Shown here piece after piece: positions 7,501 to 49,350 of a stretch of DNA of 64,000 nt. Position 1 is the first letter of the stretch; each line of letters starts with the position of its first letter. The stretch comes from Geosiphon pyriformis uo1 (taxonomy: Eukaryota > Fungi > Glomeromycota). The notes below the pieces were generated by a model. That model was not told where the DNA came from. It did no database searches and saw only the letters and a program-made list of their open reading frames with translations. Where the stretch lies: assembly GCA_016748015.1 (NCBI GenBank), contig JAAOMT010000003.1, forward strand, positions 252,373 to 316,372, in the 5' to 3' direction. Position numbers and translations under genes: made by a program.

Positions 7501-8973
7501 GGGTATCGAACTCATACCGTTCTAATCACTGATTTTAAGTTCTCCCTGGGTTCTTCTCACGTTTCGCAAACGGGTGAAATTGTTTGTTTGCCAAAAAATA
7601 ATCAACCCCCACGTGGGGTTCAACAGTTGATGCGAGATTATGTATAAAATGAAAATAAGTTAAAGAAAATCAATTGAAGAAGGTGAGGCTGTATATGTGG
7701 AAATTTGAAGATATTTTCATCTCATATTTCCTCTTTCTTCATTCTTTTCTTTCATCAACATCATTAAAACTTTTCATCTCCTGAAACCTACACAAAATCT
7801 TCTGGAAATTCTCTGGGATTACTCAAGAATCACAACCGCAATCAAAAACGCCATACGACAAAATGGCTACCCACACTCTATCACAGCCGAGTACTCACTA
7901 ACCAATCACGTAATAAAAGTTGAAGCATGTACTTCTCTCTGAAAATTTACACGAAACCCATTCATTAGAGCATTATGTTTTATGAATTGTGTTTTATCCC
8001 GATGGATTTATGTACACGAAAAGTTTCAAACAGTTGAGAAGCAGATGGCAGATGAATATTACTGCGGATCAGTGATTGGAGGCCAATTTGAATAATGTTG
8101 TTCGTTGTGCCAAGTATTGATAAGAATGATTCAAATAGAGTAACAAAGCAAATAACATGAGTGGTAGAAGAGAAATCTAATATTTTTCTAATGAATTTCT
8201 TAATTCCACTAACTTCAATTTCAATTATTCTAATTCAGATACAGGAATGTGAGAAAAATTTTTAATAATTTCATTCCTTCAATTTTCAAGTAACATAAAA
8301 TTGTAATGTGGTGGATTTTTTTGTTTCATACTTTTATTATCTATATTTAGCAGCAAAATCTGAAAAAACTTGAAATTAATTATATCATATTATAAATTCT
8401 TTTGAGATTTTTTTCAACCCATTCATTTTAATGGCGGTTTGCAACATTAATATTTCTCAATAAAATTGAAATCAAGACTTTATATTGATCATAATAAAAT
8501 AATTTAATTTAATTTTGAAATATATTATTTTGAACTATGTGTTATTATTTAAATAAAATAACCATTTTTTTCATAAAACATATTAAATTGTTCATATTAA
8601 AAAATTCAAAATAATCAAATTATTATTTTTTTTCATTCATATTTATAAAATTATATTAACTACAAAAATAAAGAACTTTTTTGAAAAATAAATAAAAACA
8701 TATATTGTAAAATAAATTATGTTATTATTAAAAAATAGTTCAAGTATTTGAGTTAATAAATTTTAATTTTAATTTCTTTTTCAAGTAATAATTAATCAAA
8801 ATAATTTTTATTTTTAACATATCAATAAAAATTATAAAAAACTTTTTTCTCTCCTTTATCCCAAATTCCTAAAAAAGAGTCATAATTTGAAAGAAGTTTT
8901 TTTCTGTTATTTCATACTGTTATCCGACACTTTACAAGAAACAAATCCTTTTGTTGTTGATCTGACTGCTTCC

Positions 8974-10818
8974 ATGAGTGATACTGGTGCTAAAAGAAGA
9001 TCAACCAGAGTTCCGACTTCTGGTTCAGTTGGTAGTGATTCAAGTCATAAGATCAAGAAACCTCCTGGTGATGCTAAGCTATCAAGTAATAGTGTAACTC
9101 TCAAAGGTAGTGGGTCTAGTCAAGTAGTTGGGCAGTTTAATAGCATGGATACTGATGGGAAGGCTTCTGAAGATAAAGGAGTATCTGATTCCAAGATGAA
9201 TACACCCTAAGCCAAGTGTTTCAATAATGGTGCAATTATTGGCTCCCCCTTCAGCTCTTTTAATTATGACATGGAGAAGAAAGAAGAGGTTTCTCTTCCT
9301 TTTCATAAGTCTTTCTCTTTGGATAAGGCATGAATTGATTCCAAAATCATTAAAACTCAGGTGGAAGTAGCTGTGAAAAAATCTTTCACTTTGGACATCA
9401 ATCTTTCAGCTGTAGAAAGGAAATTGGCAATGGCCAAAACTCAGATCATAAGGAAATTATTTTCAGGAATCAATGGTTTTGGGAGGGCCACTACCTCCTC
9501 AAAATTTGAAAAGATCATCAGATCAATGTTTACTTTGTCAAAAAGCATGAAAAAGGCCACGTCATTGGTCAGAGAAAATAACATCATAGTAAACAGTGAT
9601 CTTAAGAGACAAGGAATTCGCTTAGATTGAGCCGTAGTAATCAAAAAAATTCCCATGGATACACCAAAAGAAATGATTGTCACCACAGTTTCTGAGTTTG
9701 GACAAATTAAGTCGATCAAAATCCAACTTATTGGTTTATGGCAGAAGACTGTGGTAGAATTTGCCAAATTGAAACAGGCTGTGTCTTTGGCTGTTAAATG
9801 GTCTTTTCTAATTGGTAAAAACTCAGTTTGTGTGACTATGGCAGTGGGTAATCATGAAACTTGGACATCTAGAGATCAGTTCAGAGCACTTTTGTTTATT
9901 TTGCCAGTGAGAACGACTGCCCATGATCTCGGTGATCTATTGGATAGGGCTGGTGGTAAAACTTGTATAATCAACCGTTTTTTGGAAACTGGAAATAGAT
10001 TTCACTGTGCTGTGGTTGGGTTTGTGTTTGACAAATTGTTGAAGTCTGCTTTTTGTATGGAACCTATTCTTGGTGGTGTGAGGCTTTTTTGGGCTAGATT
10101 GGATCTGGTTTGGTGCGAGTGGTATGGGAAATTTGGCCACTCTGCTTTGGAGTGTGATCCTGAGATTGTTTCTACTTCTATGTCTTCCAAGTCTTTTAAA
10201 AGGGTTGTCTCTGATGAAAACCACCTTCAGTTGGCCTGTTTATATGTGAAAAAAAGTGTGCCTATTTCTTGTCCGGTTGCTTTTGGTGGCAAATCATGGG
10301 CCCAAGTAGTCTCTTTTGTACCTTCGTTTAATAATCCTCGCTTTGGTTTTGATCCTGGTTTTGACTTCTTTTCTTCTGGTGCTTCAAGTGTAATTGGTTC
10401 ATCTCCTCATATGGTTCTTGCTAGTATATTTTTGGAGACTCGTTTTGCTTCTTTGGAGCATTCTGTGGAGCTTTTTGTGGATAAAGTGTCTGGTATTGTG
10501 AGCAAACTTGAAAATTTGGTCTTGGTGCCCCCAGCTCTTATCTTTTCTTCTCAGAATTTGGTGGTCCCAGTTGTGATAAATGTGGAGATTAATTCGGATA
10601 TGGCTCTGGATGATCCTATGTCAATACTTCTTCCCTTCTCTTTGGTTTTCTTTAGTACTTCAGAATTAGGTTTGAGTAGTTCAAAAATTTTGATCTCAAA
10701 AATAGGCTGTTTGGAGTTAAAGTTGATGGCCCTCGAGACTTCGGTTTGTTCAGTTTTGAAGAAGTTAGATCAGATGTGTATTGGTTTGGGTTCTGCAGTT
10801 TCTTTTTTACCTCAATGA
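8974..10818 (+). pseudogene. LINE-a ORF1 (RRM-like domains, degenerate CCHC knuckle, C-terminal coiled coil), with premature stops
   Basis: ORFs 8887-9210, 9361-9630 and 9655-10818 share one frame, separated by stops. IPMDTPKEMIV..FGQI..LWQKTVVEF; CEWYGKFGHSALEC. Confidence 0.85.
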
Positions 10819-13800
10819 GTAGTTTCATGTGAAAAATTGCTTCATGCAATATTAGAGGGATGAACAATCCTGCTAAGCAAGCTGACGTCATTCGTTGGCA
10901 TAAGGAAATAGACAATATGATCTCAATAATTACCGAAACAAAATTAAAGGGTAGAATTTGTTCTTGGATTGCTGATAGATTTCCTGGAGTATGTGTATTC
11001 ATTTCCAGTCTGGATTCTGGTTATTTAGGTTCTGGTGTGGCAATAGTTATGAATACTGCTCTGGTAAAACATGTATGCAAGATCTCTGAGGTACCCGATT
11101 GGCTTCTTTCTGTTAGGCTGCTTTTCAAAAATAAACTCTTGGTTTCTGTTTTGGGTCTGTATGCTGGCACTTCACCATTAACACACTTTTCGCAAGCAAG
11201 TAATGTAAACATCTTGATTTCTAAGGCTGTAAACGAATCTTTTTTTGTGATTTTGGGTGGCAATTTTAATGAAAATGGCTCCCATAAAAGTGCCAGTTTC
11301 AAAAAGTGTGGTAGCTTGGGCTTGGTCAACTCTCTTGTTGGTAATAATTTTCTAAGAGCTTTAATATGGAGCAATTCTAGAGGTGTGGCAAAGACAATAG
11401 ATTACATATTTGTTTTTTCCAATTTGGTTAACGCAATAGTGGATTGTAGTATTCTGGATGTTGGTAAATTCTTTAATACTGATCACCAATCTATTTCTGT
11501 ATCAGTTAGTTTGGGTGGTTTGCTGAACACATATCTATGTTCACTTCGTAAACAGACCAACAAGAACCATTGGAAGTATAACTTCAAAAATGCTAATACT
11601 GCTTTATAGTTAAAATTCAGGGAGGTGATGGTGGTAAACGCTGCTATGTTTTCTGATGATTTTGTAACTGCCAATGAGCTTTCAGATTTGGATGCCATGT
11701 GAGATGTTATTTGTAAAACAATGCGCTTTTCAGTGGATGAAGTTTTCAAAAAAAAATGGTTTAAGAAATATGATGGAGTTTTCACCAAGAGTTCGTCCAG
11801 GTTGCACAAGCTGGAACTTCTGGTATCTAAATTGGTTAGGGCCTCTTATTTGGTTAATAATGACAATTTTGTCTCATTGCTTAATACTTGGGAGTCACTT
11901 GATTCTGATAATGTGGTCGTGATTAGGTCTCTTTTTCTCTTTGGTTTATCTTTTAATAACATTTGTTCAGCTCTGTCTAAAGTCAGAAAATCTTATCATG
12001 CTTCAAAGTTGTCAGAATCTAAATAAGCCAAGGAATCACAAATCAGATCTGCTATTGAGAAGAGGATGGAGAGCTTTGTGTTTAACAAGAGTCACATTAT
12101 TAAAAGTGTTTTGGAAAGGCCTTTTTACAAGATGGTCTTGGATCATTTGATCATAGGTGATGAGCTAATTTTGGAACCAGACTCTGTCAAATCTAAGATG
12201 GATGAGATTATGGAAGGTTGGACTCGAAAATGCAGTATGGTTCCTAATATCCCAGAAGACTGGTCTCATCAATATTAGCCTTTAGACCATGTTTTTGATA
12301 GTGCTTTTTCTAATGTCATGAGCTGTGTGGGTTTTGATGAGCTGTTTGGTGTGGTCTCAAACCTGCCTGACAGCAAAGCTGCTGGTTTGTTGGGCATTTC
12401 CAATGAACTTTGGAAGCATTGTGATATTTCGGTTCTTGGTATGTTTTTGGTGCTCATTAACTCTTGTCTTTCTGATGAATCTGTGCCCAGAGTTTAAAAG
12501 AAGGCTTGGGTTTCAATAATTCCCAAACCTTATAATTGGGAGGGCATACTCACAAACACTCATCCTATCGCTTTAATTAAAATGACTTGAAAAATTCTGT
12601 CCAAAATTCTTTTCAATAGGATTTCTTTGGCTTGTAGCAAGTTTGATGTTCTTCATGGGGACAATTTTTTAGTGCTCAAAGGCACTATGACTCAGTCTCC
12701 CATATTTGCAATTGGTTCGGTGGTCAAGAATGCTCTTGAAAAGAACTGAGAGCTCTGGCTGATTTTACAAGACATGCGAAAAGCATATGACTTAGTTGGT
12801 TGGGATCATCTTAAGAAGAGTTTAATTAGAATTAAAATGTATAGCAAGTTTATTTGGTTTTTTGGGGGTATTCATGACAGTCGTACCAACCAGGTAATGA
12901 CTGATTTTGGGTTGACAGATGGTTATTGTGTGCATGATGGCTTGGACCAGAAAGAGGTGTTTTCACCTTTTCTTTGACATATATTTTATGATCCTCTTTT
13001 GTATGAAGTCAAGAGACAGGAAAATGTGTGTGATTACAGGCTGAATTCTTATTTCATTGCTAAGACAAGGCCATGTAGAGTCTCAAGCTGGGTCAACAGC
13101 TTTTTTTGCTGCTGATGCTTTTGTGGATAATACAATCTGAGTTGGTAGCAGTTAGGTTGCAAACACAATACATTCTCAATATTGTCAGTGAGTTCTTTCA
13201 GATCAATGACATTTTTATCAACAATGATAAGACAGTGGCCATTCTTATCAACTGCAGAGTTGCGAATTCTTCTTTATTAATCAATGGTGCTCCTATTTCA
13301 GTGGCCAAAAAAGGGGAATCTTATTATTACTTAGGCATTTTTCTCTCCACTAAGGACTTATCATGACCCAGTTTGGCCAAAGCTCATTCAGATGTCTGAT
13401 TTTTTGCCAATCTTGTACTAAGGAAAGCTATCTCTGACAAACAGTTTTCATATCTGGTTTCAGTGGTTCTTCATTCTATTGTCAGTTATAGAATTCAATT
13501 TAGCTTTGTCTCTCTTAGTGTTTGTAGTAAATGGAATGCCTTGATTCGCAAAGGCCTCAAATTCAAAGCTGGACTGTCCCAGGATTTCCTTAATGATGCA
13601 TTCCATCATCCATCCCTTTATGGCTTAAAAACTTTTAAGCAAATTCAAGCTAAATGCAAGTCAGTATCTGTGGTGTGTTTTGCCAATTCTGGTGGAATTT
13701 TGGGACATCTGTTTCTTCATAGGTCTCATGAATTACAGGTTTTAAGCTGGCGCCCCTATTCATCTTTTGGTGTTCCTGGCTTGTCTGAAAATTAGCCTCA

Positions 13801-15506
13801 TAAACAATTTTTTAGTGGGTGTCATTCATATATTTAGAAATTGCAGTTTATTTTTGAGTGATGCTAGACCCAGTGCATTTCAGTTTTGCAATGGTACTCC
13901 CATGTCTTTGGTGCTTGGTGAGTCAAATTTCTCCAGGTGTCTCCTTTCACTTTGATGGTATGGTATTGCCTTTATGGAACAATTATGTGACTGTGAAGGT
14001 GGTGTTTTTGAGTGGGTGACCTTTAAGCATTGAAAGAGGCTGGATCCACGTGGCCCCATTCCTGAATAGTTCGTCTTGTTTATTAAATTTCTGGGTAATG
14101 TGGTAGCTTCTTCTGTGCAAAATCCATTGTCGGGTGATGCTAATGCCTCTAGTGTTTTGAATTCCGTTAAGTTTGGTTTGGTTCGTGATTACTTATCTGG
14201 TCTGAGTGCTGGCTGCATTTCGGTATACACAGACAGTTCTTTGTCTGGCTTGGGATCTGTTAACATGAGGTCTGGTGTGGTGGTTTTCTTTGATGACATT
14301 AACATGGGTATGGGAGTCAAAGTTTCAGATTTAATGTCATCTACACTAGTAGAATTGCAGGCAATAGCACTTGTCCTCAAGTGCGTTCCAGTGTTTAGTA
14401 GTGTTAGTTTGTTCTTAAACAGTCAGGTGGCATTGGATGCTTGCAGATCTGAATTAAGTGTATCTCATCCAGATTTCCGTAATCACTGCTGAGTAGAACA
14501 CCATCATATTGCAAATCTTGTATGCTCGAAGAGGTTGAAAATTACCTGGCATAAGGTTAAGGGCCATTCTGGTAATTTTGGCAATGACCATGCTAATGAG
14601 CTGGCTGGCCATGCTGCTTCCTCTAATTTGATTCTTCCTCCCCGGTTTAATGAAAGATACATCTTGGCTGGTGGTAATATTGTTTCAGGTAATTCTAAAC
14701 ATTTCGTTTGCGACGTTTTTTGTTCTATTCATCATCTGCGCTGGAAGTATGGTTCAGACACCAATGTTATTACTCAAGATTTGTTGGCAGACATTGATTG
14801 GCAGAGATCTGTTTCTGTCTGGCATCCCGATTTGCATATGGCTGCTGGTCCTACTGGTAAACACACTGCTGGCATTCGCACATATTTTATGAAAGCTTTA
14901 CATCACAGGCTGTCTGTTGCTGTTCACAAATGCCTTTATGATAGAGGTTACCCAAGTGTGATCTGCTTATTTTGTGGCTGTGTGGAGGTCTCTGACCATG
15001 TTTTTTTCTGTAATACTGATGCTGCTACTCGTGTTCATCTTTTGGGGAACTACGCAATGATTTGGAAGAATATTTCCAGCCTTTGTTGTTCCACTTCTAG
15101 TGTGTTACAATTTTTGTTCTCTTGTGTTTTAAACACTTCGCTCCGTATTGCTTTGTGCAAAGGATTTGTTTTTAAAAAGTGGTTTCATGAAGCAGTCTCT
15201 GTGTTTGGTGATTCTAAGAGTGCTAGTGTGAAAGTTGTGAACTTTGTGCATGTTCTGTGTCTTGTTTTTAAAGATGAAATTTGGTCAGTCTGTGTTAAGT
15301 ATTGTGTCTTTATGGAAAAGCGTAATTTGATCTCTCGTGACAGTTTTTTGCCTAATTCTAAATCTGGTCTATCTTTTGTTTACTCTGCTGGGATTATCAA
15401 ATTGTTGGGTATTGATGTTGCCTTAGGTGTTAATTTTGGTTTTCATAAGTTTAGTTTGTTTATTTCTGATGCTTTTGATATGGTTTTTGTTAGTATAAGT
15501 GCTTAA
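10815..15506 (+). pseudogene. LINE-a ORF2: AP endonuclease, RT, RNase H, C-terminal Cys/His finger; many stops and frameshifts
   Basis: CNIRG, TETKL, LGGNFN, TIDYIF, TDH (APE); QDMRKAYD, GLDQ, FVDN (RT); YTDSS, ELQA, KVKGHSG..GNDHAN (RNase H); CLFCGCVEVSDHVFFC. Confidence 0.92.
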
Positions 15507-16298
15507 TATTGTCTTGATTGGCCTGAGTGGCTGGTCATGTGTGGAAAACACATGATTTGCACCTAATTTAGATCAATTATTTGATGTATTTTATTAGTTA
15601 GTGTTTGGACTTCACTCAATAAACATAAAAAAAAAAAAAAAAAAAATTTAAATTATATAGTTAAAATAAATTCTAATAAATAAATAAAATCCAAATAATT
15701 TGGTTTTTTTGTAATTTTTGTAAATAAAAATGGTTTAAATACTTCTGTTAAATTTTCAAAAATTTTTATTGCAATTGTTAGTTGTAAACTTAATTTTATT
15801 AATAATTAATAATAATATCTAATTTTAAAAAGTTTTATGTCTGTAAGAATTTAATTTTTAAGTTATTTAAATAAATTTTTTTTCAATGTTTTTTAAAATA
15901 AAATACATATATGTGAATTCATTATAAAAAATTTTTTGATTTTAATTAAATTAGTAATTATTAACTTTTAATTTAATAAATAAATTTTAAAAAATTATTT
16001 ATTTTAATTAATTATAGTTTTTACAAAAAATTTAGATTTTTTAACCAATTTTTGCTTTAAATATTGTAAAATAAACAAAAAAATTTTATAATTATATGCT
16101 ACAAGCTTTTAATAATTTAAAATTTGGTTTAATTTTTGTTAATAATTTGGTATTTTTTTTAAGCAGTATTCAATTATTTTAATTTAACTATCACTTATTA
16201 TAATATAATAAATCTAAAATATATGTAACTTATGTTTTAATTATATATAATTAATTAATTTTAAAAAAAATTTATAAATTCTTTGTCTTCTTAATTTT

Positions 16299-18530
16299 AT
16301 GACCACGACCAAAGCAAAGAGTAAAAAAGTTACAACTGATATTTTTTCTGAAATATCTAATAAAATTTCAACCAGAAAGGCTCTTTTTGTTGTAGAAACA
16401 ACTAGGCAGAACGTTTTAAAAATCTTCTCTTTACCTAGTAATTGTGAAAAACTGTCTTTGGTAGCTATTAAAGCAACTTTCTTATTTTTGGCTGGTTTTT
16501 TATTAGTTAAAATTCCCTTAAAGAAACACATTTGGATTAGTCTCAATATTGCCTTTACTCTTTTAAAAAACCCAAAAATTTTTAATAACAGACCAGTCAA
16601 CAAGTTGGTTTTCTCTTCTATAGTTTTAATATCAGATGTTGCTAGCATCTTTTTTTCTCAAAAAAACCAAAAGTTCAGAAAAGTGGAAGCAGTTACTTGC
16701 TTCTGCTATTGTTATACTAAACTTCTTTGTAATTCCAACTGAAATTTTAAATAAGATTTTTACTGTTTTATTCAGCATATTATTTAAGATAAGCCAAGAT
16801 CAATCACTGACTGTGTTGCTAAATGTGGTGCTTTTTAGTAAATTCTTGCCAATTTTAGAAACAAAACAATTATTTTTTATTGAGTTACCTGTTCTTGGAA
16901 ACTAGGCTGATCAAATAGAAACTGATTTATCTCTTTTGGTTTCTAGTATTGCTACTGATAGTACTTGGAAAACCATTACTAGTTATTAAAAATTTGCTGG
17001 ATGAGTGGCCTCTATTTTAGTGTTTAATGCTATTTTTAAGATCAAATTGACTTATATTAAGACTGTTTTCCAGTCTGTACATGGTTTTTTGGAAGCAAAG
17101 TTAGTATTAAAAAACAATATAAAGCTCTTTTATATAGAATTTGCTTTTTAAGTGTTTTTGAAAGCTGTATTTTTGGTTGAGCTTATAAGCACTGTTTATT
17201 TAGCCACTCTTAAAATTGCCAAGTTTCTGGTAGTTTCTGAGTCTGGTTTCTCTTCTGCTGCTATTGTGCTGTATAATATGCTTTTAAGTGTGTCTGTTGC
17301 TAATATTAAAACAGCTCTTAGTGTGTTTGGTAGTGTTACTCATATTGTACTAAAGTCTGCTAACATTTGGCAGTATGTGGTTGTTTATTTTAATAAGTTA
17401 AATTCTACTGTGTCTGCTTTAAATTATTAATTAGTTTTAGTAAACAAAAATAGTGTTAGAATTTTTTTCTTGGTAAATTAGAATAAGACTATTCTGTTTT
17501 ATAATAAATTTAAGGCCAAGTTGGTCAATTTTCTTTCTGGCTGTACAGCTTTTAAAATTAATGATATAATTTTTTAAGTTGGTGATTGGACATGTTTTAT
17601 TCTTTATTCTTCTAAGTCTGGTTACTGTTTTTGATTTGCTCTAATTATATTTAATTCTTAAGCTGATTTGAATTCTACTGTTGTCAAAACTAGTATACTA
17701 AAAAAGTACCATATTTGGTAGAAAATTCCTAGTTGTTGGTGTTATTTTAAGTATCAAAAGTTAAGCTATTTGGCTATGGACTGTAAAATTTTTCTATCTC
17801 TTTTTCTCAAGTCTTCCAAAATATTTATATCACACTTTATTGGCTCTAAGTCTTATGTCAAGGCTTTTGCTTCTTTAAGCTCTTCTGGATTTCTATTTTT
17901 GTTATCTTTTGCTTCTTTTTTAATTGTTATTGGTAATTTTTTAGTGTTATTCTGATTGTTTTTTTTGGAATCTGATTTAACTAAGCTTTCTATTTTGGTT
18001 GAGTCTATTGTTAAGCCTATTGGCTTTCTGGTTACAACTTTTGAATAGTTTATCAATGAAAATTTGATTTCAAGTAGTGCTTTTGGTCTTAAAATTAATA
18101 AGATTTTGGTATATATGGGTTTTTTTAGTAAGACTATTGATAAGCTGAAAAGAGAGATAATCTCTTTAAAAAAAGAGTGCTGCATGGAAAATATTGATAT
18201 ATCTGGTAATTTGAGACATCTGATTAGTATAGATGATGATACATTTTTTAACTTAATGTTTTTTTGGGCTTATAAGCCTGTTCATATCAAAATTGATCTC
18301 TTAAAAACGATTGAATGGCTGGTTGAGTTGGTTCCTAATAGTATTGTTTTGTTTAGTATTATTCAAAAAATGTTGTCTTTGGATAAGTTTTCTTCTGTTG
18401 TATTAACATAGTATAATCTAAACTGGCTCAAGTAGCTGGTTATATATAGAAAGCATGTAAACCATATTTAACTCTAAAATATTTAGTTTATTCCTAATTT
18501 TTAATTAGTGATTAAGTCTTGCTTATTAAA
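16299..18530 (+). mobile_element. ORF1-only non-autonomous retroelement (HAL1-like), decayed
   Basis: One broken reading frame of ~700 codons (16299-18411) aligns block by block with LINE ORF1: IKTALSVFGSV..IWQYVVVYF, SVLVNKNSVRI, FKAKL..GCTAF, TCFI, and a knuckle remnant. There is no ORF2. The stop is followed directly by the LINE 3' tail homolog (18412-18460) and an ATTAAA-type end. Confidence 0.78.
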
Positions 18531-19859
18531 CTTTAATAATAATAAAAATAACTAATTATTTGAATTAATTAAATTAAATTATATAATATTTATTAATAAT
18601 ACACTGATAATTTTTAAAATTATAATTCATTAATAATATATATATAAAATATAAAATTCTTAAATTTAGAAATAATTAAATTATAAATATTAATTAAAAT
18701 AAAATTATTACTTATAACTAAACTTTTTTTTATATTTTACTTTGAATTTAAAATTTAACAACCAAATATGTTTTTTATAGTTAATTATTAAATTATAAAC
18801 AAAATTAACAATATATTAACTAATTTTAATAATAAGCTTAAATTTTAATAAAAAAATTTTAAATCAATCTTTAAAAACAAAACTTTTGATTATAATTATT
18901 ATTATTAAAAATTTTATTTAATTTTTTTAATATTATTTTTAAAAGCTATTCAATTTTTAATATAATATTTATTTTAATATATTAATCAAAATTGTAATTT
19001 TAAAATAATTAATTATAAAAAAAGTTTGGTTTTTTAAAAATAAAGATTTATTTTGTTAATTTATTAATATTATTAACTTAATATATTTTTTTTAAAAAAG
19101 TTTTTTTTTTATATTTTATTATAAAATTATTTCAAGCTTTAATACTTTTTTTACTAATTTTTTATAAATTTTTTAAGATTTAAATATATATTTTAACAAA
19201 TTATAAGTTATTTTAATAAATTATTAAATATTTTAATAAATTTAACAAATTTTTAAATATTTTACAATTTGAAATATTGTATAATTTAATTATTATATTT
19301 AATTATTATATAAATTAAATTATGTAAAAAAGCTTTATTATGTATTTAAGCTTTAAGAGTTTTAAAAAATTAAAAATTAAAAATTAAATTTATTATTTTT
19401 AAGCATAAAAAAAGCTTTATTAATAATAAAAAATATTTTATTAAAAATATTTTTAAATACTTTTTTATAAAATAGATTTAAATTATTCAATTATAAAAAA
19501 TAAATTGATTTTAAATTTTAATAAAATTAAGTTTAAAATAAATAAAATTATAAAAAATTAAACAAAAAAACTGTATTAAATATAATTTTTAATTTATAAT
19601 ACTATTAATATTTTTATTAATTTATATTATAAATATTAAGTTTATTGTTTTAATTAAAACTGTTAAAAAGATTTTTTTAAATTTTTTTAAATTGTATTTT
19701 AACTGTTATTATAGTTTGAAAATTTAATAAAAATTATAAAATAATATAAATTATTCAATTAAAATATAACATAATAATAATTATAAAAAATTAATAATTT
19801 ACATAATAATTATTATTATAAAATATTAATAATAAGCATTATTTTACAATAGTAATAAA

Positions 19860-22800
19860 TTTTTATTTTATAAATATAATTTAATTACTATTTAAAGTAC
19901 TACAATCAAATAAAATTCTAAATTAAGCATAGCTTATATTTTTTTTTTATATAACTAATTATTCAGACCAACTAAAACAACACTATATATTTATATTACT
20001 AATAATTATAAAACTACTAAAAAAACTAAATAATATTAAAAACAAAGCATATTTTAGACCAAAATTAACATAAATACTTAATTTTAAGTCAAATTTATAA
20101 ACTATAGCCAAAAACTATACTAATAACAGACCAAAAATTCAAGAATTTTTAAACTATTTGCTAAAATTAGATTTAGCTTCTTATAATAAACTTGTATTTT
20201 AGTATTAAGTAATTATATGTTAGATTAATAATTTTTAACAAAACTATATACAAAACTAATTATTCTTTAAATTGTATCTAATTATGGTTTAATTATTAAC
20301 ACAACTTTTAACAATTAATTTATAAAAACAAAGCTCTTAACTAATATTATATAATTCAACTCTAATAAAATATTTGGCCACTATAAAAACATTAGCAAAA
20401 ATTTTCAATAACTTAGTTCAATTAAAAATAATACTTAAAATAATCTTATTTTTTATATTAAGATTTAATATATACAGAAATATATAATTAGAGTTTTTTA
20501 ATAAACTATAACAAATACAATTTACATCTAAATATTCTGAATTATACAACTTTTTTCTTATTACAACTAGTAAACAGTAATATAAAGTCTTTATAAAATA
20601 AGATCATAATACAATAAATAATACACTAATAAAACTAAATTATATATGACTATCAGAATACCAAATATTAAAAGTCTTATGTATATTAAACTTACTATAT
20701 AATATTCTTTTCAATATATAATTAGTGTATTTGGCTTTCTAATTTACATATACAACAAACTTAAACAGATTTTTAATAAAACAACAAATATTTTCAAAAA
20801 CTGGCCTACTTTTAACATATAAAAATTTAAATTTTATATCTAAAAACAAAACAAAAAAAACTAAGTATTTATATTCACAAAAAAATTAACTTTCTTATTG
20901 CTTATATTCTCTAAATAATTTTTAATCTTTCTTTATATTATTAATAAATTCTTTAATATGACAATTTTACAAATATATTTTTATTTAATTTAGCACTTAT
21001 TTCAAAAATTAAGGCCAATACAATTTGTAACTAATCTATATATATTCAAAAATACTTGATTGTTTATAAACAAAATAACCAAACTTAAAACTGAAACATA
21101 TTTGAAAACAAGAACTATAGCCTATAATTTGGCTAGAATTAAGAACAATAAACCCAAAACTTTAATATTAATACTTAAATTAATTTCAAAAAAGTATATA
21201 ACAATATTATTACAAACTTTTATAAATTCAAAATACATGACCAAATTATCAGTATACAAACTTATTTGACTTAATTCAATACTTAATAAATAATCTTTAA
21301 CAAATTCAAAATTATAAAAAACTGTTATTAAATAAAACTAAATAGCCAAAGTACATTTATTAATTAGATTATTAATCATAATAAACTTGACCAAAAACTT
21401 AAACCAAGCTAAAACTAAATCTCTAAAACTGAGCTTTTTTTATCTATAAAATCTGTTTTAAATTATATATTTATTATATCAATTCAAAAGCTGATTAATA
21501 AACAAAATTCTAAACTTTTTTAATAACATAATTACACTTGTATAAATTTTTAAGTTTAGTACATCAGTAATAAGAATACTATTTTCAAACTTAATTATAT
21601 TAAACAACTTATTTTCTAAAAATAATTTACACAATAATAGTATATTTATAATATCAACCAAAAAATTGTTTATAAAATTAATCTACAATCTAATCAAAAA
21701 TTAGAAAAAATGCTAAAATATTCAACTAACTGTCTGCAAATTTATTGTCCCATACAAAAAAAATCACTTAAAATGCTCTTAGTATTAGCAAAATTAATAA
21801 AACCAACAACCAAATTTTCAGATTGTATTTGTTCAAATAATTTTAAATTATACAGAATTAGATGTAAAATAGTCTTAATAGAAAAATTTTTTAGCAAGTT
21901 AGCTTTTAACTTAAGTTTTTTTTTCAATAATCTATTTTATTTATCATATATACTCTTAAAAATATAATTAAATTGTATTTTATAACTAATAATAAACTAC
22001 AATACAATAAAAACCAAATACAAATATTGTTTCTTCAAAATATTTTTTTTCAAGACTATATTTAAAAAAAATCTGATATTAAAATAAATCTTGATTAGAC
22101 TTGGTTTGAATAAACCACTAGTTAATAAAAAAATACTAAGTATTTATAAAATTTTTTTTTTTTGGTTACTGAAATCTTTGTACTATTGATGTATAGTAAA
22201 ATTTTTTTTATTTTTTGGTTAATTAAAAATAACAACTGTTTTATTAACATTAATTAAAATATTATTAATAAAAAAAAACTTACTTACAATATCTAAAATA
22301 TATTAAGTTGTTATTATACTATTTTTAATTCAAATAATATTATCCACAAAAATATCTGCAGCAAAAAAAAAAGTCTTGTTATTCTTAAAATTAATTTTGT
22401 TAGATCTTGTAAAAAATTTAAAGTTTATTTTGTAATCATACAGATGTTTATGCTTTTTAATTTTGTAAAACAAAAAATTATAAAAAATTAAGATGAAAAA
22501 ATCTCTTTTAGATCTAGCTTATTATAAACAACATATTTATCTAAAAGCCCAAAATTTGTTATAATTCAATTAATTTTTCTATTATAAATATTCTTAAAAA
22601 TTTTAATGAAGTGTTTACACATTTTAATTTTAATAAGATCATTATATAATTAATATCATTAAACTAAATTATAAGCTTTGTGTATATTCTGCAAAACCAA
22701 CTACAATTCTTTATTTTTTTTAAAGCATTTTTAACTACAAACTTTATAACAAAAATTAGAGTCTATATTGCAATATTTTTAAGCATTAAAAAATTGTTTT

Positions 22801-25800
22801 ACAAAGTATATTAAATTTGCTATACATAAAAAAAATTTTGTTAGAGAGTATCTTGAATAATATTTTTTTTACTGTTTTAATCAAAGCAATTAATCTAATA
22901 TTAATTAACACTCTATTTTAATTATATAATTTAGAAATCATAAACATTTATATTTTTTTTTATGTAATAAGAACTGTATCTAAAATCAAACATAAATTCA
23001 AAATATTTAAAAGACAACTCAATATTAAATTACTACTATGCTTCTAAAATTCATTAAAAATTCCAGACAGATTAACAATTTTATTATCAGACAAATTTTT
23101 GACTATGTATATTAATTTATCTAACTTGATGTTAATTATAATATCAGAAAATATTCTATTATCTACATGTTTTAAAGAGACATATTGGTTAGACTACAGG
23201 TTTAGTATTATTGTTAAAACATTTTATTTTCTAGTTCAATTTTTTATAATTGTATCTATTTTGCTTTTTATCTCATTTGGCTCCAAAATTAATTTATTTT
23301 TAATTACCAAATAATTCAAAACAATTTTTTAAAAAGATGTTTCAAGATATTTCTTATCATATAATCTTTGTTAATACAGAAATTTTCTATTTTTTTTTAT
23401 AATTTTTCTAATTAAAAATAATTTCAAAGCTTTTAACTCCCAAAACTTAAACACATAATAACTTTTCTTAATCTTAAATAGATAACAAAAAATATTTTTC
23501 ACTTTTATTTTGCTTTTAACTAAAGACTGTATTTTAAAAGTTTTTAATTCATTAACTTTTAATTACACTTGTATAAAATAATTAATTCTTATTATATTCT
23601 TAAAACAAAAAACTTTTATAATTTTAGAAACCAGAATTTCTAATCTGTAAAACTTAGATAACTGTTTATTTCTGAAAACTGTAAATTTATTGTATTATTA
23701 TTTTAAAAAAACTTTTTTTGCAGAATCTACTAGAATATTTTTAAAAATTTTCTATATTATATTTATATTATCTTATTCAATTGTACTCTAAAAATCACCC
23801 ATTTTTATGAACAACTTGAAAGATAATAACTGCTTAAAACAAAACTATTTAGTTTTATTAGTTTTATTAATTTCAAACTTTCAATAATTCTTATTTGTTT
23901 GCTTATAAATTAATTTTAGACATTTATTCAAAAAATTATCTAATCTAATAAAGATTAAAACTGTCTTGTAATTTATATCAAAAAATACAAAAACATTAGA
24001 TATTTTCTGATTTATCATTATTGTCAAAAAAATTTTATTACCAAAAATATAATTAATTATTCTTTTAGAACTTTTTGAGTTGTTTTATATATAAAGTTTG
24101 GTAACAAAATTCTTAAAAAATAAGTTATGCAAACCCAAATTAAAATATTTCTTAAAAATAACACTATACTTAAAGTTATTTTTATTAAAATCATCTTTTA
24201 AAACTACATAAATATTGGTATTTACAGCTTTAGTTATAAAATTATTAATGTTGTCTGTTTATAAAAACTTAATACTAGCTAAAACACTTATATATAGTCT
24301 AATAACAAAAATAAAAACTTTGTTTTTGAATAAAAACCAAACAGAAATAAGCTAATTAAGAATTTTTAAAACTTTGGAAGCATAATAAACCAGAGAGTTA
24401 TTTACAATTAAAACAACTTTAAAACTTATGAAATTTTTATTTAAGTTAGAGTTGAATACATAAATTTTATCAAACTTATTTTTAATCTATAAATCGACTT
24501 TGATTTTAACTTGGTTTTTATAACAAACAAAACCAAATTGGCACAGTTATTATATTATTTTACAATATCTTTCTGTTTAGTTTTATTGTTTATATCTTTA
24601 ATATTGCAAATAGTAAACTTCTAAAAAAAATTGGTCATTAAGACACAAAAAATATTTTAGAGCATAAATTAATACATAACTGATTTAATCTTACTAAAAC
24701 AGAAAAATAAATATTTTAAAAACAACTAATTTTAATTCTAAATCACTTACTTTAATAGTCAAAACTTTAAAGCTGCTTATATTCAAATCTAAAGTTTTTT
24801 TTATTTTTAGTAGAAGAAAAAAAAATAATACTTGTAGATTATTTAAAACTATATTTAAGTTTAAATTCAAATCTAAAATCACTAAATCTGCCAAGATAAA
24901 AGACAAAAAAATGAGAATAAAAACCAAAAACACTAATTTCATACCATTTAGTTTGTACATAATACCAAAAACTTAATTAGCCAGCAATTTTAGTGATTAT
25001 TCTAAAAATACTAGCTGATTGCCAATCAAAGAAGTTTTTTAAAACTTAAAAAAATACTATTAAAGTAAAACATATTAGAAAATAAGAAACCAAAAAAAAA
25101 ACTAAAACAAACATAAACAGGAACAACAATTAGAAAAACTATTTGTACTCAAGATTTATTACCAAAAACAACAGATTGAAAATTAGAAACATTTTTTTTT
25201 GCATAAAAATGAGTTAGCTAAAAACAATTTTTATTTAAAACAAACTTTTTATAAATTTTTGTTAAAACTAGAACAGCTGGTTTTAAAGAATTATACTTAA
25301 GAGATAAATAGCCAAAATATCCATATTTTTTATATTAAACCAAACTTAATCTGGTTTAAAAAAGTTTTATATTACTTAAAATTGGCTCTGTGCAAAAAAC
25401 TAATTCCAATTTCTTTTCCAAATCAAAACTAATTACAACATAATAAACTTTATTGCCAATTTCAAATAAATAATTAATAATACAAGTTTTTCTATTAGTC
25501 TTTTTTAACAAGACATCAAAATTATAAGCAGTTGTTTTTATTGGCAAAGTAAACAAAAATGCTTTAAACCAATCTTTTGATATTTCAAATATTATAATCT
25601 TTAATAATCTTTGCAATATATACTAAATTTTTTCTGATTAAAAATAATTATTTTAATACTAACTAATTAGCTTAACTTGATTTAATAAACTTTACTATAG
25701 TTTTTTATCATAACTTAATTAATTGTAATCAGATTAACACAATTTGACCAAACTTGAAAAGAATTACAATAATTATTTTTTTTAATGTATTTATAAAAAT

Positions 25801-25814
25801 TTTTTTATAACTAC
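19860..25814 (-). mobile_element. LINE-b: extremely AT-eroded copy of the LINE-a subfamily, 5' part lost at an LTR insertion
   Basis: ORF 25356-25616 (FKAFLFTLPIKTTAYN..KTCIIN..CTEPIL) matches LINE-a ORF1. The ATGA junction is at 24635-24638. The tail homolog follows the stop at 19983-19985. Spacing matches a full-length ORF2. Confidence 0.85.
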
Positions 25815-26127
25815 TGTTACTGGAGGTTTTTGGTTTCTTTTTAGCTCTTGTATGTTTGTTGTAATGCTGTTAATTTACGATTATGAGAAGTGTTTGAACC
25901 TCCGATAACTGAATTTTATCTTCAAATTATCTCCTATAATTTGAACTGCTGGGCTTATAAGTGGAATGGCCAATTCTGTGCCAGTTGCTTCATGTAGTTA
26001 TGTTGTAGTAAATGTCAACTTTTTCCCAGGAATTGCTCATCTGGAAGCTCACTAAAAATGTGTAGTTACTTTGCTGTGAAAGTCAACTCTTCTACAGGAA
26101 TCTTGTCTGTAGGCTACCCTAATGATT
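25815..26127. repeat. LTR family A, partial copy
   Basis: Starts TGTTAC and is closely similar to 37288-37600; it breaks off at the Tn5 mosaic end. Confidence 0.88.
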
Positions 26128-35600: not shown

Positions 35601-35739
35601 TGCCAGTACTCACTGGTTAAGTCCAGTGTAGAAAACCATTTTGCTTCTCCAAAAACGTTGAAGATTTCGTCAATTAACGGTATTGGGTATGAGTCTTTGG
35701 TTGTTTTGCTGTTTAGTTTGCGATAGTCGATGCAAAATC
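32659..35739 (-). mobile_element. Gypsy-B internal region: RT, RNase H, separate integrase, extra 3' ORF; 5'-truncated
   Basis: FCIDYRKLN, YLDD, LATDAS; HHCC (HSDIHSGH..CDPC), SDQGTHF, PQTNGLVER, WDGPF. N gap at 32997-33016. Confidence 0.93.
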
Positions 35740-38700
35740 AGCTCATCACCTACCACCAGGTGGTTTAAAACCACTTTGCAGAAAAGGCACTCCAGAACAC
35801 TTTGAATAATATGACCCTTGTTTAACTCAAAGCTTTCCATTCTTTTGTCAATTGCTGACCTAATATGAGACTCTTTAACACGTTCTGATTCCAACAACTT
35901 AGACAAACAGTAAAATTTCCTAATCCTGGCCAAAGTTGACCAAATAGTATCAAAATGGGAACCCAAAAGAAAAAAAAACTTAACAATAGAGGCATTAGCA
36001 GAATTAAGACTGCTCTACAAATCAAGCAGGGAAACAAACTCCTCATGAGAAACCAGATGCAAAGCCCTTACAATTCTTGACACCAAAAGTTTTAATTTAT
36101 GAAACTTGGAGGATGCTTTATTAAAGACACTATTATAGTCCTTTAACTATTTCTTCTTGAAAACACCCTCAGTTAATAAACACATAACCTGGCAAAGAGC
36201 ATTTCACATTGAGTCTAAATCTGAATTATTTACAGCAGCACAAAACTTATTATGAAACATGGCAGCATTTGCTGTCATATCCTTTTTGAACTTGACCCAT
36301 TTATTATCATCAGCACTCTTAAAATTGTATTTCCAACAATCTTTATTCGCCTGTTTGCACAGTGAGTTCAGCCACACATCCAGTAAACCACCAAGATTCA
36401 CAGAGACAGAAATGGCATTATGATTGATATTAAAATATTCAACAACAGCAGCCACATTACAATTCACTATTGCATTGACCAAATTAAATAAAACAATAAA
36501 ACAAATAAGTAATCAATAGTTTTGGCAGTACCCCAAGAATTGCTTCATGTCACTGATTTCGCAAATGAGCTCCCACCCAAAGAATTGACTAAATTCATAT
36601 CAAAACATTTTTTGAAGCTAGTACTCTTGTAAGAATCATTTTTATTAAAATCACCATCCAAGATAACGAAAGAAGACTCATTTACAGCCTTAACAATCAT
36701 AGAATTAATATTATCTGCTTGAGAAGAACATGTCACCAGAGAAGCCCCAGCATAAAGTCTCAGAATCAACACAGAAAGTTTATTTTTGAAGAGTAATCTG
36801 ATAGAAATAAGCTGGCCAGAAACATCCAAAACCTTACACACATGCTGAGCCAAAGAATTGTTCATAATTATTGCCACACCAGAACCCAAATGGTCAGCAT
36901 CTAAACCTGAAGTAAAAACCTGAACACCATCAAACTTGTTCATGATCTATGGACAAATCTTACCTTTCAGCTTAGTTTCAGTAACAATTGAAATCAAATT
37001 GCCCACGTTTTTATGCCAACAAACAATGTTATCTTGTTTTGCAAGATTGTTTATGCCTTGAACGTTACACATAGCCACCTTTTAAATGATGTTAGTCATT
37101 GAGAGGAAAGTGTTTCAGAACCCAAACCAGCATTTTCCAACCTGGCCAAAAGGCCCATAATAGTTTTAGATAAATTATCCAAAGTATTCTCCAACTTAGA
37201 AACTACTGACAGATTGTAAACAACCATCTCAGCAACAGTTTCACCACTAGTGACTGCACCCAAACCCTCACTCATTACTGTATCTACTGTTACCAGAGAT
37301 TTTTGGTCTCTTCTTAGCTCTTGTATGTTTGTTGTAATGCTGTTAATTTACGACTATGAGAAGTGTTTGAACCTCTGATAACTGAATTTATCTTCAAATT
37401 ATCTCCTATAATTTGAACTGCTGGGCTTATAAGTGGAATGGCCAATTCCATGCCAGTTGCTTTGTGTAGTTACATTGTAGTAAATATCAACTTTTTCCCA
37501 GGAATTGCTTATCTAAAAGCTCACTAAAAATTTGTAGTTACTTTGCTGTGAAAGTCAACTCTTTTACAAAAATCTTGTCTGTAGGTTACCTTAATGATTA
37601 TAATAAGAAAATAAAAGAAAAAAAATAAAAGAAATATAAAAGAAAATTGAATTCTGTCAAGGAAATTGTTTTTGATCCAGGCCTGGAGTCACTAACAGTT
37701 TATTGAAATTAGTAGCTAATCAATTTCAAAACGTTAGTTGGTTTTTGAGAATTTTCCAAGTGTAATAATTAAAGAATTTGGGAGTTTTTTTTTGAATTAT
37801 TTGATATTTATTTCTTTTTGTGTATATAGAAATGGTTCTAAGTAATAAATCTAAAATAAGATACATTTTTTCAAAAAAAGAAGCTCTTCTTTTATACAAT
37901 TTGTCATAACACTATTCTATAAACTTGAACTTTGCTATTTTCTATAATTTCACTGAACTAGAGATACATTTTGGCAAACTATAAATTATTTCTGCAAACT
38001 ATTAGATATTTCAGTGAATTATCAATTATTTTGGCAAATTTCTACAAATTTTGGTGAACTTTTTGAATGTTATATAGTTTGGTGTATTGCATGATTGATC
38101 ATCACAATTAAGTTACATTTGTGTTATGTACAAATTGGGTTATTAATTAAATGATAATTTCAGATATTTTTTTAATGTAATAAGTGATAATTTGGGACAA
38201 TAATATATGCTAACTAATAATAAAAATTATAAGGGTAATTTCATGCTAAACAATATCTCTAATTTCATTTGGTAACACTGCCCCTTAATTCTGTAATGAA
38301 GAGGTCATCAATGGCTAACATCCAGGACCATGCTGGGAAACCATTGGTCCAAGTGCATCCAACTTCTTGGCCAGCTTATCAACTTGCTTAGCAAGACTGG
38401 CAAGACTGCACTCGAGAGTAGCAAACCTATTATTCATATCCAAAGAAAACTGAAGGGAAGGTACAACAGCTGACTGCAAACTGTTACCAGAAAGAGATGA
38501 CGAAACCACACAAAAACTGGAACCACCAGCAACTTGAGTCCAAGTTTTACTAGTGAAAACCATAAAACAGGAGATAAGAGCCAGCTTCTTCTTATAAATG
38601 CTAGCCAGACAAACTCGATTCTGTTTAAAAAATACCCATTTGTCACAAACACCAGAATTCCCACCCAAAGGATAGTTGATTGTAATATGACCAAATTGTT

Positions 38701-40098
38701 TGCACTGAGTACAACTGGCCAAAGAAAGACCAGTCCACTGCAAACTCACACCCTTGAAAATAAGAACGGTACCAATAGCAGCCAACTTGGATGCCATTCT
38801 CAAAACAAATAATCACACACCTATTATGAACATATGAGCTCGAATTACAGCCAATAAAACATGTTCTCCTACTATAAGCCTCCACTAACTCAGAAAAATT
38901 GTGTGCAGTAGTACCAACTGAAAGAGTGTACAACAAAGCATGATAACAGTTCCTTGAAATCCATAGCTCCTTGTCATTAATGGCCAAAGCCACGCACACA
39001 AAATCCTTACTCACGAGAACCAATCATTTAAAAGCAACCAAACAGACAGTCTTAGTAGACTCAAATTCTACCAAAGCCCAATCAACTGCATCTTGATTGA
39101 TTTAATTTTGCCAAATTTGAAGAACACTGTCTCAATTACTGATTTGGAAAGATCTACTGGGATCTCCTTGATGATTATTTCTCAATCCGAACAGCTGTTG
39201 ATTTTTTTGAGATCATTATTCACAATAATTTTTTTATTGATCGCCATTTCTTTGGCCTTATTCAAACTAGACTCACTTATGAAAGTTGACCGAATGACAC
39301 CAGAAAATTTTGAGGAAGTTGAGGCTTCCCCAAAATCATCAATTTTGTAAAAAATTTTTTTTATTGAAATGAGCTTATCACTATTAGTTTTGTCAGGCAC
39401 AGCAAACAAATTCACATCCAGAGCAAATGATTTAATTGGACCAAAACTATGACTCTCAAGGATATGTAACTTGAAAGGATGCATCTAATTAGATCCAAAA
39501 TTTTTAGGAAGTGGCAACATGAAAGCTTCATTGTCATTGTTTACATTGTCAAAAGAAGGTGCCTTAAGAGGTTGTTCTAACACAATTGTTTTGGTGTGAG
39601 TTTTTCACGGCGTTACATTATTTATGGTATTATTGTTTACTGAGGTATTTGAATTTGCATAACTGGTCTCTTCTGCAACTGTGTTTTTCATGTTATCAAC
39701 ATCTGACAGGCTGCTGATACTGCTGATTTTGCTTCTCACTTTACTGTCCCAAGACACCATAGGTTGACCACCAATGACACCAAGATCCTCGAGACTCAAG
39801 AGTTCAGCAGATGAATTGACTACACTATCATCAGCAGCAGGCTTCTTTGGCTTTTTATACAATGCACCACGAAAGTAAACATTCTCCACATGCTTTTTTT
39901 TGGTGCCAAGACAAATTCTCAAACTGGCCAAACCTAAACCCGAACCACCAGCAGAAGAGCCTACCAGTTCTATTACAACAAAAATAGGTATACTGAAAGA
40001 AATAACTTAAAGTGAGAAAAGAGAAAAGGGAAAAAGGAAAGCTATTCTATCAATAAATTCTTCACTCTCATTGTGGTTAGAGAATTGATGAGAAAAAA
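35733..40098 (-). mobile_element. LINE-c (subfamily B): 5' UTR, ORF1, APE and linker; 3'-truncated and interrupted by solo LTR-A
   Basis: Its 5' UTR and ORF1 start match 63400-63558. CTQCKQFGH knuckle; ATGA junction at 37096-37099; APE motifs (TETKL, LYAGAS, GDFN). Confidence 0.9.
37288..38277. mobile_element. Solo LTR family A (990 bp)
   Basis: TGTTACCA...TGGTAACA termini with a 4-bp TSD, CTAC (37284-37287) / CTGC (38278-38281). Removing it restores the LINE-c ORF1 frame. Confidence 0.9.
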
Positions 40099-49198: not shown

Positions 49199-49350
49199 TA
49201 TGGAATTCCAGGATTTTTTTCAGAGGAATTGTAGAATTCCAGGAATTTCAGGATTCTCTGGCGAAGAATTGCAGGATTCCAAAATTCCAGGATTCCTCTC
49301 ATCAGGAATTGCAGGATTCCTGTCACAAGGAATTGAAAAATTGAGGAATC
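49199..49350. repeat. Degenerate GGAATT(C/G)CAGGATT array
   Basis: About ten related 9-21 bp units visible. Confidence 0.8.

What the first reader, a model, noticed from the sequence alone, without database searches (positions are those of the whole stretch)
19860..25814. RIP-like near-total G/C erasure of a 6-kb LINE
Seen: this copy stays collinear with LINE-a, but most G and C have become A and T in all contexts (e.g. AHDLGDLLDRAGGK becomes AYNFDVLLKKTNRK), well beyond CpG sites. The MULE relic and the ORF1-only element show the same, while nearby genes keep their CpGs. Known: RIP is described in Dikarya, and TE CpG methylation is reported in arbuscular mycorrhizal fungi. Inference: a repeat-directed hypermutation process, or non-CpG methylation, in an early-diverging fungus. 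If it is RIP-like it might imply a cryptic sexual cycle.
Basis: partly seen in the sequence, partly recalled or inferred. Interest (0 to 1): 0.75.

Follow-up and report, generated by a model that had tools for sequence, protein, structure and literature searches.

The report
Repeat-confined C-to-T decay in Geosiphon
In the symbiotic fungus Geosiphon, old jumping-gene copies have turned about 60% of their conserved C and G letters into T and A while a broken ordinary gene beside them shows no such change, likely because silenced, methylated repeat regions mutate slowly and steadily; the outcome resembles the fungal defence RIP but lacks its burst signature, so it gives no evidence of hidden sex.

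Summary
The window is Geosiphon pyriformis (Glomeromycotina). The LINE at 19860-25807 has changed 434 of 732 conserved G/C by C:G>T:A, against 20 of 995 reverse transitions and about 4% transversions. About 36% of G/C survive; only CpG is nearly gone. The change is strand-symmetric and hits CpA, CpC and CpT alike. In younger copies CpG decays about 6-7 times faster than other contexts. A MULE DNA transposon relic and 236 other LINE gene models show the same skew. A neighbouring non-TE pseudogene shows 0 of 101 such changes and 10 transversions, so this is not genome-wide AT bias. Transversions and frameshifts scale with C>T load, and a lightly mutated LINE sits inside a heavily mutated one, so the eroded copies are older. 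RIP hallmarks fail: no CpA preference and no same-strand clusters. Best reading: chronic, likely methylation-linked decay confined to repeat domains, closest to Dim2-dependent mitotic mutation in Zymoseptoria. I found no report of it for Glomeromycotina. Methylation and enzymes are untested.

The parts
19860..25807 (-). Heavily eroded LINE copy B (the finding): ORF1 remnant to about 24521, then ORF2 remnant (endonuclease-RT-RNase H by homology); 5' end cut by an LTR
   Evidence: 434/732 conserved G/C changed by transition; GC 17%, 1 CpG; domains from Pfam on relatives; 3' limit read by eye
25808..26127 (.). LTR-like repeat at the 5' break of B; sister copy at 37281-37599 (92% identical)
   Evidence: 22 transitions (9 at CpG), 2 transversions; 36 contigs of other copies carry LINE-like sequence past this point
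8900..15625 (+). LINE A, lightly eroded comparator
   Evidence: 117/904 C:G>T:A; 2 frameshifts
55905..63530 (-). LINE C, lightly eroded comparator, with a solo LTR at 57821-58602
   Evidence: 122/896; its gene model is G9A89_023152
35733..40090 (-). LINE D (partial, interrupted)
   Evidence: 78/381
47021..50775 (+). LINE E, younger, inserted into LINE F with an identical target-site duplication of about 11 bp
   Evidence: 74/334; junctions
46140..47020 (+). LINE F, 5' part, heavily eroded host of E; erosion fades toward the adjacent unique DNA
   Evidence: 26/43; outer 2/13 vs inner 45/58
50780..51260 (+). LINE F, continuation after E (GC 10%)
   Evidence: blastn match to B continues in register
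40093..41720 (+). LINE G, heavily eroded RT and RNase H pieces
   Evidence: 70/124; inner 57/78 vs outer 14/38; one search shows about 0.5 kb missing between the pieces
16280..18450 (+). ORF1-like element of a distant family, intermediate erosion
   Evidence: spectrum not reliably measurable
52129..53464 (+). MULE/Mutator transposase relic, heavily eroded (DNA transposon control)
   Evidence: 38/75 C:G>T:A, 1/130 reverse, 3 transversions
44717..45944 (+). Non-TE pseudogene (premature stop at 44738) of a three-member Geosiphon family; negative control
   Evidence: 0/101 C:G>T:A, 10 transversions in 288 sites; CpG o/e 0.94
1..1032 (-). Host class-V aminotransferase gene (phosphoserine aminotransferase-like by recall); negative control
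   Evidence: PF00266, 1e-39; GC at four-fold sites 67/159, CpG o/e 0.94
18450..19860 (.). Extreme AT tract (GC 7.6%, no CpG), likely the end state of older repeats
   Evidence: repeat origin is inferred, no homology shown

Best explanation
Transposon copies in Geosiphon lose C:G to T:A at a very high relative rate on both strands and in every context while neighbouring non-repeat DNA does not, and this is likely chronic decay of methylated cytosines in silenced repeat domains, with this LINE likely so eroded because it is old. Shown: the spectrum, its confinement to repeats, CpG about 6-7 times faster than other contexts, independent rather than clustered events, and the insertion order of E into F. 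Inferred: (i) repeat domains would carry dense CG methylation plus lower CHG/CHH methylation from a DIM-2-like enzyme; (ii) methylcytosines would deaminate, spontaneously or on the enzyme, and be fixed as T one at a time during vegetative growth; (iii) targeting would follow a chromatin domain rather than pairing of homologues; (iv) the AT-rich end product would feed back by offering AT-rich targets to L1-type endonucleases. The effect is RIP-like: open frames are destroyed and copies lose similarity.
For: Spectrum: 434/732 vs 20/995 vs 73/1727. Across 236 of 236 aligned gene models from other copies, C:G>T:A load spans 0.02-0.25; the slope of reverse transitions on it is -0.002+-0.011 and of transversions 0.0125+-0.004 per opportunity. 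LTR pairs differ by 15/30 CpG sites, 33/334 non-CpG G/C sites and 5 transversions in 1081 bp. Context in young copies: CpG 71/108, CpA 111/990, CpC 137/818, CpT 73/550. Confinement: pseudogene 0:10 vs B 434:93, Fisher p=5e-8; vs A+C p=6e-5. A DNA transposon is hit and strands are symmetric, so it acts on genomic dsDNA. Clock: transversions 0.033 in B vs 0.005-0.007 in A and C at the strictest sites; frameshifts 9 in B vs 7 in A+C+D+E, about 1.8 vs 2.1 per kb per unit C>T distance (my arithmetic); E (0.22) is inserted in F (0.60). Independent events. Erosion fades toward unique DNA in F and G. Literature: AMF methylate CG in TEs (PMC8647823); the AMF clade is stated to hold DNMT1, DNMT2, DNMT5, DIM-2 and RID (PMC8298701); Phycomyces has CG 3.4%, CHG 0.5%, CHH 0.9% methylation, enriched on TEs, and a DIM2 (PMC11258239); Dim2 raises mitotic C>T more than tenfold in Zymoseptoria repeats (PMC8016269).
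Against: No methylation data or methyltransferase gene of Geosiphon was seen; no genome was held. The AMF methylomes I read report CG calls only (passages). In Zymoseptoria the mitotic mutator is more than 98% CpA and spares CpG, unlike here. A mild 5'-T preference (TC 191/268 vs AC 147/279) is not predicted by this model. The non-repeat control is one pseudogene with 10 changes, all at non-synonymous positions and partly accumulated under selection. The edge-fading cut points were chosen after seeing the data, and G may be two joined pieces. The 236 proteins are the top 120 of 228 and top 120 of 614 hits, favour copies intact enough to get gene models, and may include two models from one element.
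Confidence: 0.6

Rival explanations
1. Cytosines in repeat chromatin are lost without non-CG methylation: a host cytosine deaminase acts there, or uracil and T:G mismatch repair fail there, with CG methylation explaining only the CpG excess.
For: Mild 5'-T preference in B (0.71 vs 0.53) and genome-wide (Asp/Glu first position 0.16-0.17 vs Ala 0.09); flat 3' context; repeat confinement and edge fading fit equally.
Against: No strand-coordinated clusters, which processive deaminases on single-stranded DNA usually leave (expectation recalled). Strand symmetry and the MULE relic exclude editing of retro-cDNA. Reverse transitions do not rise, so general repair is not failing.
Confidence: 0.2
2. Canonical RIP: a RID-type enzyme mutates paired repeats before meiosis, at a low dose over very many sexual cycles.
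For: C:G>T:A specificity of roughly 30-40 to 1 over transversions per site and confinement to repeats. RID is stated to be present in the AMF clade (PMC8298701, passage citing earlier work that I could not read). The composite RIP index is weakly positive in B (0.17) and negative in genes.
Against: CpA is not preferred. In Neurospora 91.9% of clusters are single-stranded (PMC7296669); here strand imbalance per copy is 0.72 against 0.82+-0.10 for independent events, and models with 50 or fewer whole-element single-strand rounds give 1.11 or more (25 simulations each). No excess of same-strand pairs at 3-1500 bp. A pseudogene with an 88%-identical paralogue protein is untouched. Other sources confine RID to Pezizomycotina or Ascomycota (PMC5751038, PMC13297926).
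Confidence: 0.1
3. Genome-wide AT-biased mutation plus age, with genes held at higher GC by selection or biased gene conversion.
For: Erosion is clock-like and nested by age; intergenic DNA is AT-rich (GC 23-30%).
Against: The pseudogene's 10 changes are all transversions. Intergenic and intron DNA keeps CpG (o/e 0.64-0.97) and four-fold sites of a host gene are 42% GC, whereas the TE slopes imply an equilibrium of only a few percent GC (my inference).
Confidence: 0.08
4. Sequencing or assembly artefact.
For: A likely library adapter sits in the assembly at 26128-26146, just past the LTR (identification recalled).
Against: Short-read contigs reproduce B base for base at depth 59-112; changes are directional, family-wide and graded by copy.
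Confidence: 0.02

Closest known systems
Dim2-dependent mitotic C>T mutation in repeats of Zymoseptoria tritici (PMC8016269, passages)
   Same: Repeat-confined, overwhelmingly C>T, needs no sexual cycle, tied to non-CG methylation
   Different: There more than 98% at CpA with CpG spared; here CpG is fastest and CpA, CpC, CpT are about equal; here the enzyme and mitotic timing are inferred
Repeat-induced point mutation (RIP) of Neurospora crassa and other Pezizomycotina (PMC7296669, PMC12543289, passages)
   Same: C:G>T:A confined to repeats, both LINE and DNA transposon, ending in very AT-rich relics next to unaffected genes
   Different: No CpA preference, no single-strand clusters, a duplicated non-TE gene is spared, load tracks age
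CpG/TpCpG hypermutation of TEs in Pucciniomycotina and Tuber (PMC3318451 abstract; PMC4352252 passages)
   Same: CpG sites in repeats decay fastest, attributed to methylation and deamination
   Different: Here most lost cytosines are non-CpG (33 of 48 LTR transitions; about 60% loss at CpA, CpC, CpT in B)
CG methylation of TEs in Rhizophagus irregularis (PMC8647823, PMC8298701, passages)
   Same: Same subphylum; explains the CpG component
   Different: No non-CG mutation signature is described in the passages read; RIP signatures are stated as not detected in Gigaspora or Mucoromycotina
Index-based RIP-like signal in Zoophthora radicans, Entomophthorales (PMC11105155, passages)
   Same: A RIP-like signal proposed outside Dikarya, possibly independent of meiosis
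   Different: That rests on dinucleotide indices and a different phylum; here the spectrum is measured site by site with controls

Membership tests
RIP (canonical) | C:G>T:A transitions far above other changes | tested here: met
RIP (canonical) | Confined to repeated DNA | tested here: met
   the control is one pseudogene plus composition
RIP (canonical) | CpA (or other narrow) dinucleotide preference | tested here: not met
   CpA 0.62, CpC 0.58, CpT 0.61 in B; CpA lowest and CpG highest in young copies
RIP (canonical) | Clustered, single-strand bursts | tested here: not met
   many very small rounds are not excluded
RIP (canonical) | Triggered by sequence homology whatever the content | tested here: inconclusive
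   pseudogene with an 88%-identical paralogue protein is spared; DNA identity and age of that duplication are unknown
RIP (canonical) | Needs RID and occurs premeiotically | not testable with these tools
   no genome held; the literature conflicts on RID in AMF (PMC8298701 vs PMC5751038, PMC13297926)
DIM-2-type methylation-linked mutation | Non-CG 5mC on TEs and a DIM-2-like gene | not testable with these tools
   no methylome or genome; clade-level statement only
DIM-2-type methylation-linked mutation | Unclustered, both-strand C>T accumulating with time in repeat domains | tested here: met
DIM-2-type methylation-linked mutation | CpA specificity as in Zymoseptoria | tested here: not met
   vs PMC8016269
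APOBEC-type editing of retro-cDNA | One-strand bias and restriction to retroelements | tested here: not met
   C>T 0.57 vs G>A 0.60; MULE equally hit
Non-LTR retrotransposon (LINE, endonuclease-RT-RNase H) | ORF1 plus ORF2 with APE endonuclease, RT, RNase H; poly(A) end and target-site duplication | tested here: met
   Pfam on window pieces and relatives; poly(A) in A and E, duplication at E; B by collinearity; LINE clade not determined

The most novel reading that the evidence does not exclude
Geosiphon runs a true RID-dependent repeat-mutation defence, context-free and delivered in many very small rounds, which would be RIP in Glomeromycotina and a molecular record of repeated cryptic sexual cycles in a lineage long thought asexual.
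Probability: 0.1. Interest if true: 0.88.

Novelty: new variant of a known kind. Interest (0 to 1): 0.55.

Why it matters
Papers I read state that RIP signatures are not detected in Gigaspora or Mucoromycotina (PMC8647823) and that RIP-like signatures are confined to ascomycetes (PMC12543289; Geosiphon does not appear in the 12 of 19 supplementary files searched). This genome shows a repeat-confined C>T process as extreme in outcome as RIP but with a different signature: CpG first, then all contexts, unclustered. If it is methylation-driven, it is a sex-independent, irreversible transposon defence in the mycorrhizal lineage, and it predicts non-CG methylation that CG-only calls would have missed. 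It also warns that RIP indices and Kimura ages mislead in such genomes, and that eroded TE frames inflate the gene catalogue.

Tried and rejected
No whole genome was held, so no direct search for RID, DIM-2, DNMT5 or repair glycosylases and no DNA-level genome-wide spectrum was possible. A metagenome scan with the RT region found no relatives: 435 pattern matches, 0 confirmed, so other Glomeromycotina were not tested. No RNA holder was listed. Runs X2 and X3 barely cover the stretch. Three-way DNA parsimony with A and C gave the same C>T level (176/306, 331/560) but is noisy because A and C are only 59% identical; I replaced it with the protein-guided method. My first LTR context count missed CpG sites mutated in both copies; corrected. 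Within-copy tests for strand runs, spatial clustering and regional strand imbalance were all non-significant in 5 of 5 copies. An apparent excess of GG>AA doublets (Gly>Asn 69 of 5253) was not pursued; adjacent-codon same-strand pairs showed no excess. RIP indices were computed but not relied on, as they rise with any AT saturation. Editing of retro-cDNA and artefact were rejected. One methylome paper was not held; the Geosiphon genome papers and the Gigaspora RIP analysis were seen only as citations. Two look-ups of earlier scan notes for RIP or hypermutation returned nothing.
Full report
Setting. A window protein is 100% identical over 96% of its length to G9A89_023152 of Geosiphon pyriformis. 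All named rows among the 120 listed hits of each of two LINE searches carry that species. No whole genome was held. The window is a nest of LINEs (A-H), Ty3/gypsy elements and a MULE relic between a few host genes.

The observation. The copy at 19860-25807 (B, minus strand) aligns to LINE A over 4239 columns at 56% identity with 59 gap columns. The quoted peptide change is present. GC is 17.3% with one CpG in 5948 bp. Short-read contigs of run X1, possibly the source sample, match 20400-25250 and 25479-25801 with no difference; 36 contigs of other copies continue past the 5' break, where an LTR interrupts B. A and C are only 59% identical, so I took ancestral states from the majority residue of 238 LINE gene models elsewhere in the genome (240 fetched minus 2 encoded in the window), using codon positions fixed by the residue. 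B shows C>T 110/193, G>A 324/539, T>C 6/528, A>G 14/467 and 73 transversions in 1727 sites. The other copies give A 117/904, C 122/896, D 78/381, E 74/334, F 26/43 and G 70/124. About 36% of conserved G/C survive in B, so 'near-total' is too strong.

Context and strand. In B the 3' contexts are flat: CpA 187/301, CpC 50/86, CpT 183/300, CpG 14/14. There is a mild 5' gradient, TC 191/268 down to AC 147/279. In the four younger copies CpG is 71/108 and the other contexts 0.11-0.17, with CpA lowest; corrected for multiple hits, CpG is about 6-7 times faster (my arithmetic). Contexts use the neighbour seen in the copy, which may itself have mutated. Two LTR pairs differ at 15/30 CpG sites, 33/334 other G/C sites and 5 transversions in 1081 bp (direction assumed). 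Both strands are hit equally. A MULE relic at 52129-53464 (Pfam MULE on 7 of 8 scanned relatives) shows 38/75 against 1/130 reverse. So the process acts on chromosomal DNA, not on retro-cDNA.

Genome-wide. In 236 of 236 gene models that aligned to LINE A with at least 100 scored sites, the C:G>T:A load runs from 0.02 to 0.25. Reverse transitions do not rise with it (slope -0.002+-0.011). Transversions rise weakly (0.0125+-0.004 per opportunity, about 0.025 per site). These models are the top 120 of 228 and 120 of 614 hits and favour intact copies.

Is it confined to repeats? The aminotransferase CDS has CpG o/e 0.94 and 67/159 G/C at four-fold sites. Intergenic and intron DNA has GC 23-30% and CpG o/e 0.64-0.97. 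A broken non-TE gene at 44717-45944 has two paralogues (88% and 75% protein identity). Where both agree it shows 0/101 C:G>T:A and 10 transversions in 288 sites; Fisher p=5e-8 against B and 6e-5 against A+C. Against the closer paralogue alone, unpolarised, 12 of 30 differences are transitions, 6 in each direction. This is one small, partly selected control, but it lies about 200 bp from LINE F, which has lost 60%.

Burst or clock? At the strictest sites transversions are 0.033 in B and 0.005-0.007 in A and C, roughly in step with C>T distance (0.94 vs 0.14-0.15). Frame switches beyond the ORF1/ORF2 junction and insertions number 9 in B and 2, 0, 3, 2 in A, C, D, E (a 4-codon block in A was treated as noise). 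That is about 1.8 and 2.1 per kb per unit distance, or roughly 200 C>T per frameshift (my arithmetic). E (0.22) is inserted into F (0.60) with an identical AT-rich target duplication, so the host was likely already eroded. B is therefore an old copy on the same line as the young ones. Erosion fades toward unique DNA in F (2/13 vs 45/58) and G (14/38 vs 57/78). The cut points were chosen after looking, and G lacks about 0.5 kb between its parts, so this only suggests a chromatin-domain edge.

RIP hallmarks. In Neurospora 91.9% of RIP clusters are single-stranded (PMC7296669, passages). Here none of 5 window copies shows strand runs or spatial clustering. Among 4468 events at 34627 sites in 236 models, same-strand pairs are not in excess at any distance from 3 to 1500 bp. 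Per-copy strand imbalance is 0.72, against 0.82+-0.10 for independent events and 1.11+-0.10 for 50 whole-element single-strand rounds. Hundreds of tiny rounds remain possible.

Mechanism. The hierarchy CpG far above CH, independent events, age dependence and domain confinement fit chronic deamination of methylcytosine in silenced repeats, with CG methylation plus weaker non-CG methylation from a DIM-2-like enzyme. This step is inferred; no methylation or enzyme was observed. Supporting passages: TE CG methylation in Rhizophagus (PMC8647823); all five methyltransferase types stated for the AMF clade (PMC8298701); CG 3.4%, CHG 0.5%, CHH 0.9% and DIM2 in Phycomyces (PMC11258239); Dim2-dependent mitotic C>T in Zymoseptoria, although CpA-specific there (PMC8016269). 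Two other papers restrict RID to Pezizomycotina or Ascomycota (PMC5751038; PMC13297926), so its presence is unsettled. A deaminase or local repair failure (0.2), low-dose RIP (0.1) and genome-wide bias (0.08) are the rivals.

Novelty. Seven library searches listed no paper describing this in Geosiphon or Glomeromycotina. PMC8647823 says RIP signatures were not detected in Gigaspora or Mucoromycotina. PMC12543289 (abstract, passages, section 9) confines RIP-like signatures to ascomycetes; 'Geosiphon' occurs in none of the 12 of 19 supplements searched, and the other 7 could bear on this. PMC11952901 (passages) treats Geosiphon TEs with no mention of RIP. PMC11105155 (passages) proposes an index-based signal in Zoophthora. 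PMC3318451 (abstract) and PMC4352252 (passages) cover CpG-type decay in Dikarya. PMC13443276 (passages) used CpG-only calls. The Geosiphon genome papers and the Gigaspora RIP analysis were seen only as citations and could contain a remark on this.

Verdict. A real, genome-wide, repeat-confined C>T decay of unusual strength and flat context: a new variant of methylation-linked repeat mutation, not shown to be RIP and no evidence for cryptic sex. Interest 0.55.

Noticed in passing
window 26128-26146: A 19-bp stretch that matches the Nextera/Tn5 mosaic-end adapter (identification recalled) sits between the LTR at 25808-26127 and an integrase piece. The junction may be an assembly chimera; 51 contigs leave the LTR here with other sequence.
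   Followed up: partly
window 29250-29885 (-), within the gypsy element about 26147-32658: The Ty3/gypsy element carries a dUTPase domain (PF00692, 1e-19) upstream of its RT. Of interest beside a cytosine-loss process, though dUTPase acts on the nucleotide pool, not on DNA.
   Followed up: no
window 47011-47021 and 50770-50780: Target-site duplication of LINE E inside eroded LINE F; both copies carry the same AT-rich state, suggesting erosion creates new LINE insertion sites.
   Followed up: partly
window 57821-58602 and 31769-32658: A solo LTR inside LINE C belongs to the family of the gypsy LTR at 31769; the 31769 copy carries 22 of the 26 derived transitions if C>T direction is assumed.
   Followed up: partly
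window 44717-45944: Pseudogene of a three-member Geosiphon gene family with no Pfam match for the paralogue scanned; its private changes are all transversions, 5 of 10 being G>T or C>A.
   Followed up: partly
window 18450-19860, 54300-55900, 15650-16270: Tracts of 7.6-10.6% GC flank the 3' ends of LINEs B, C and A; likely fully eroded older repeats, no homology recoverable.
   Followed up: no
window 3371-4542 (-): Host gene with a signal-peptide-like start, Ser/Thr-rich region and one hydrophobic stretch; no Pfam match for the piece scanned.
   Followed up: no
At least 228 and 614 database proteins match the two LINE queries, and the named ones listed are annotated as hypothetical Geosiphon genes; many gene models in this annotation are decayed LINE frames.
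   Followed up: no
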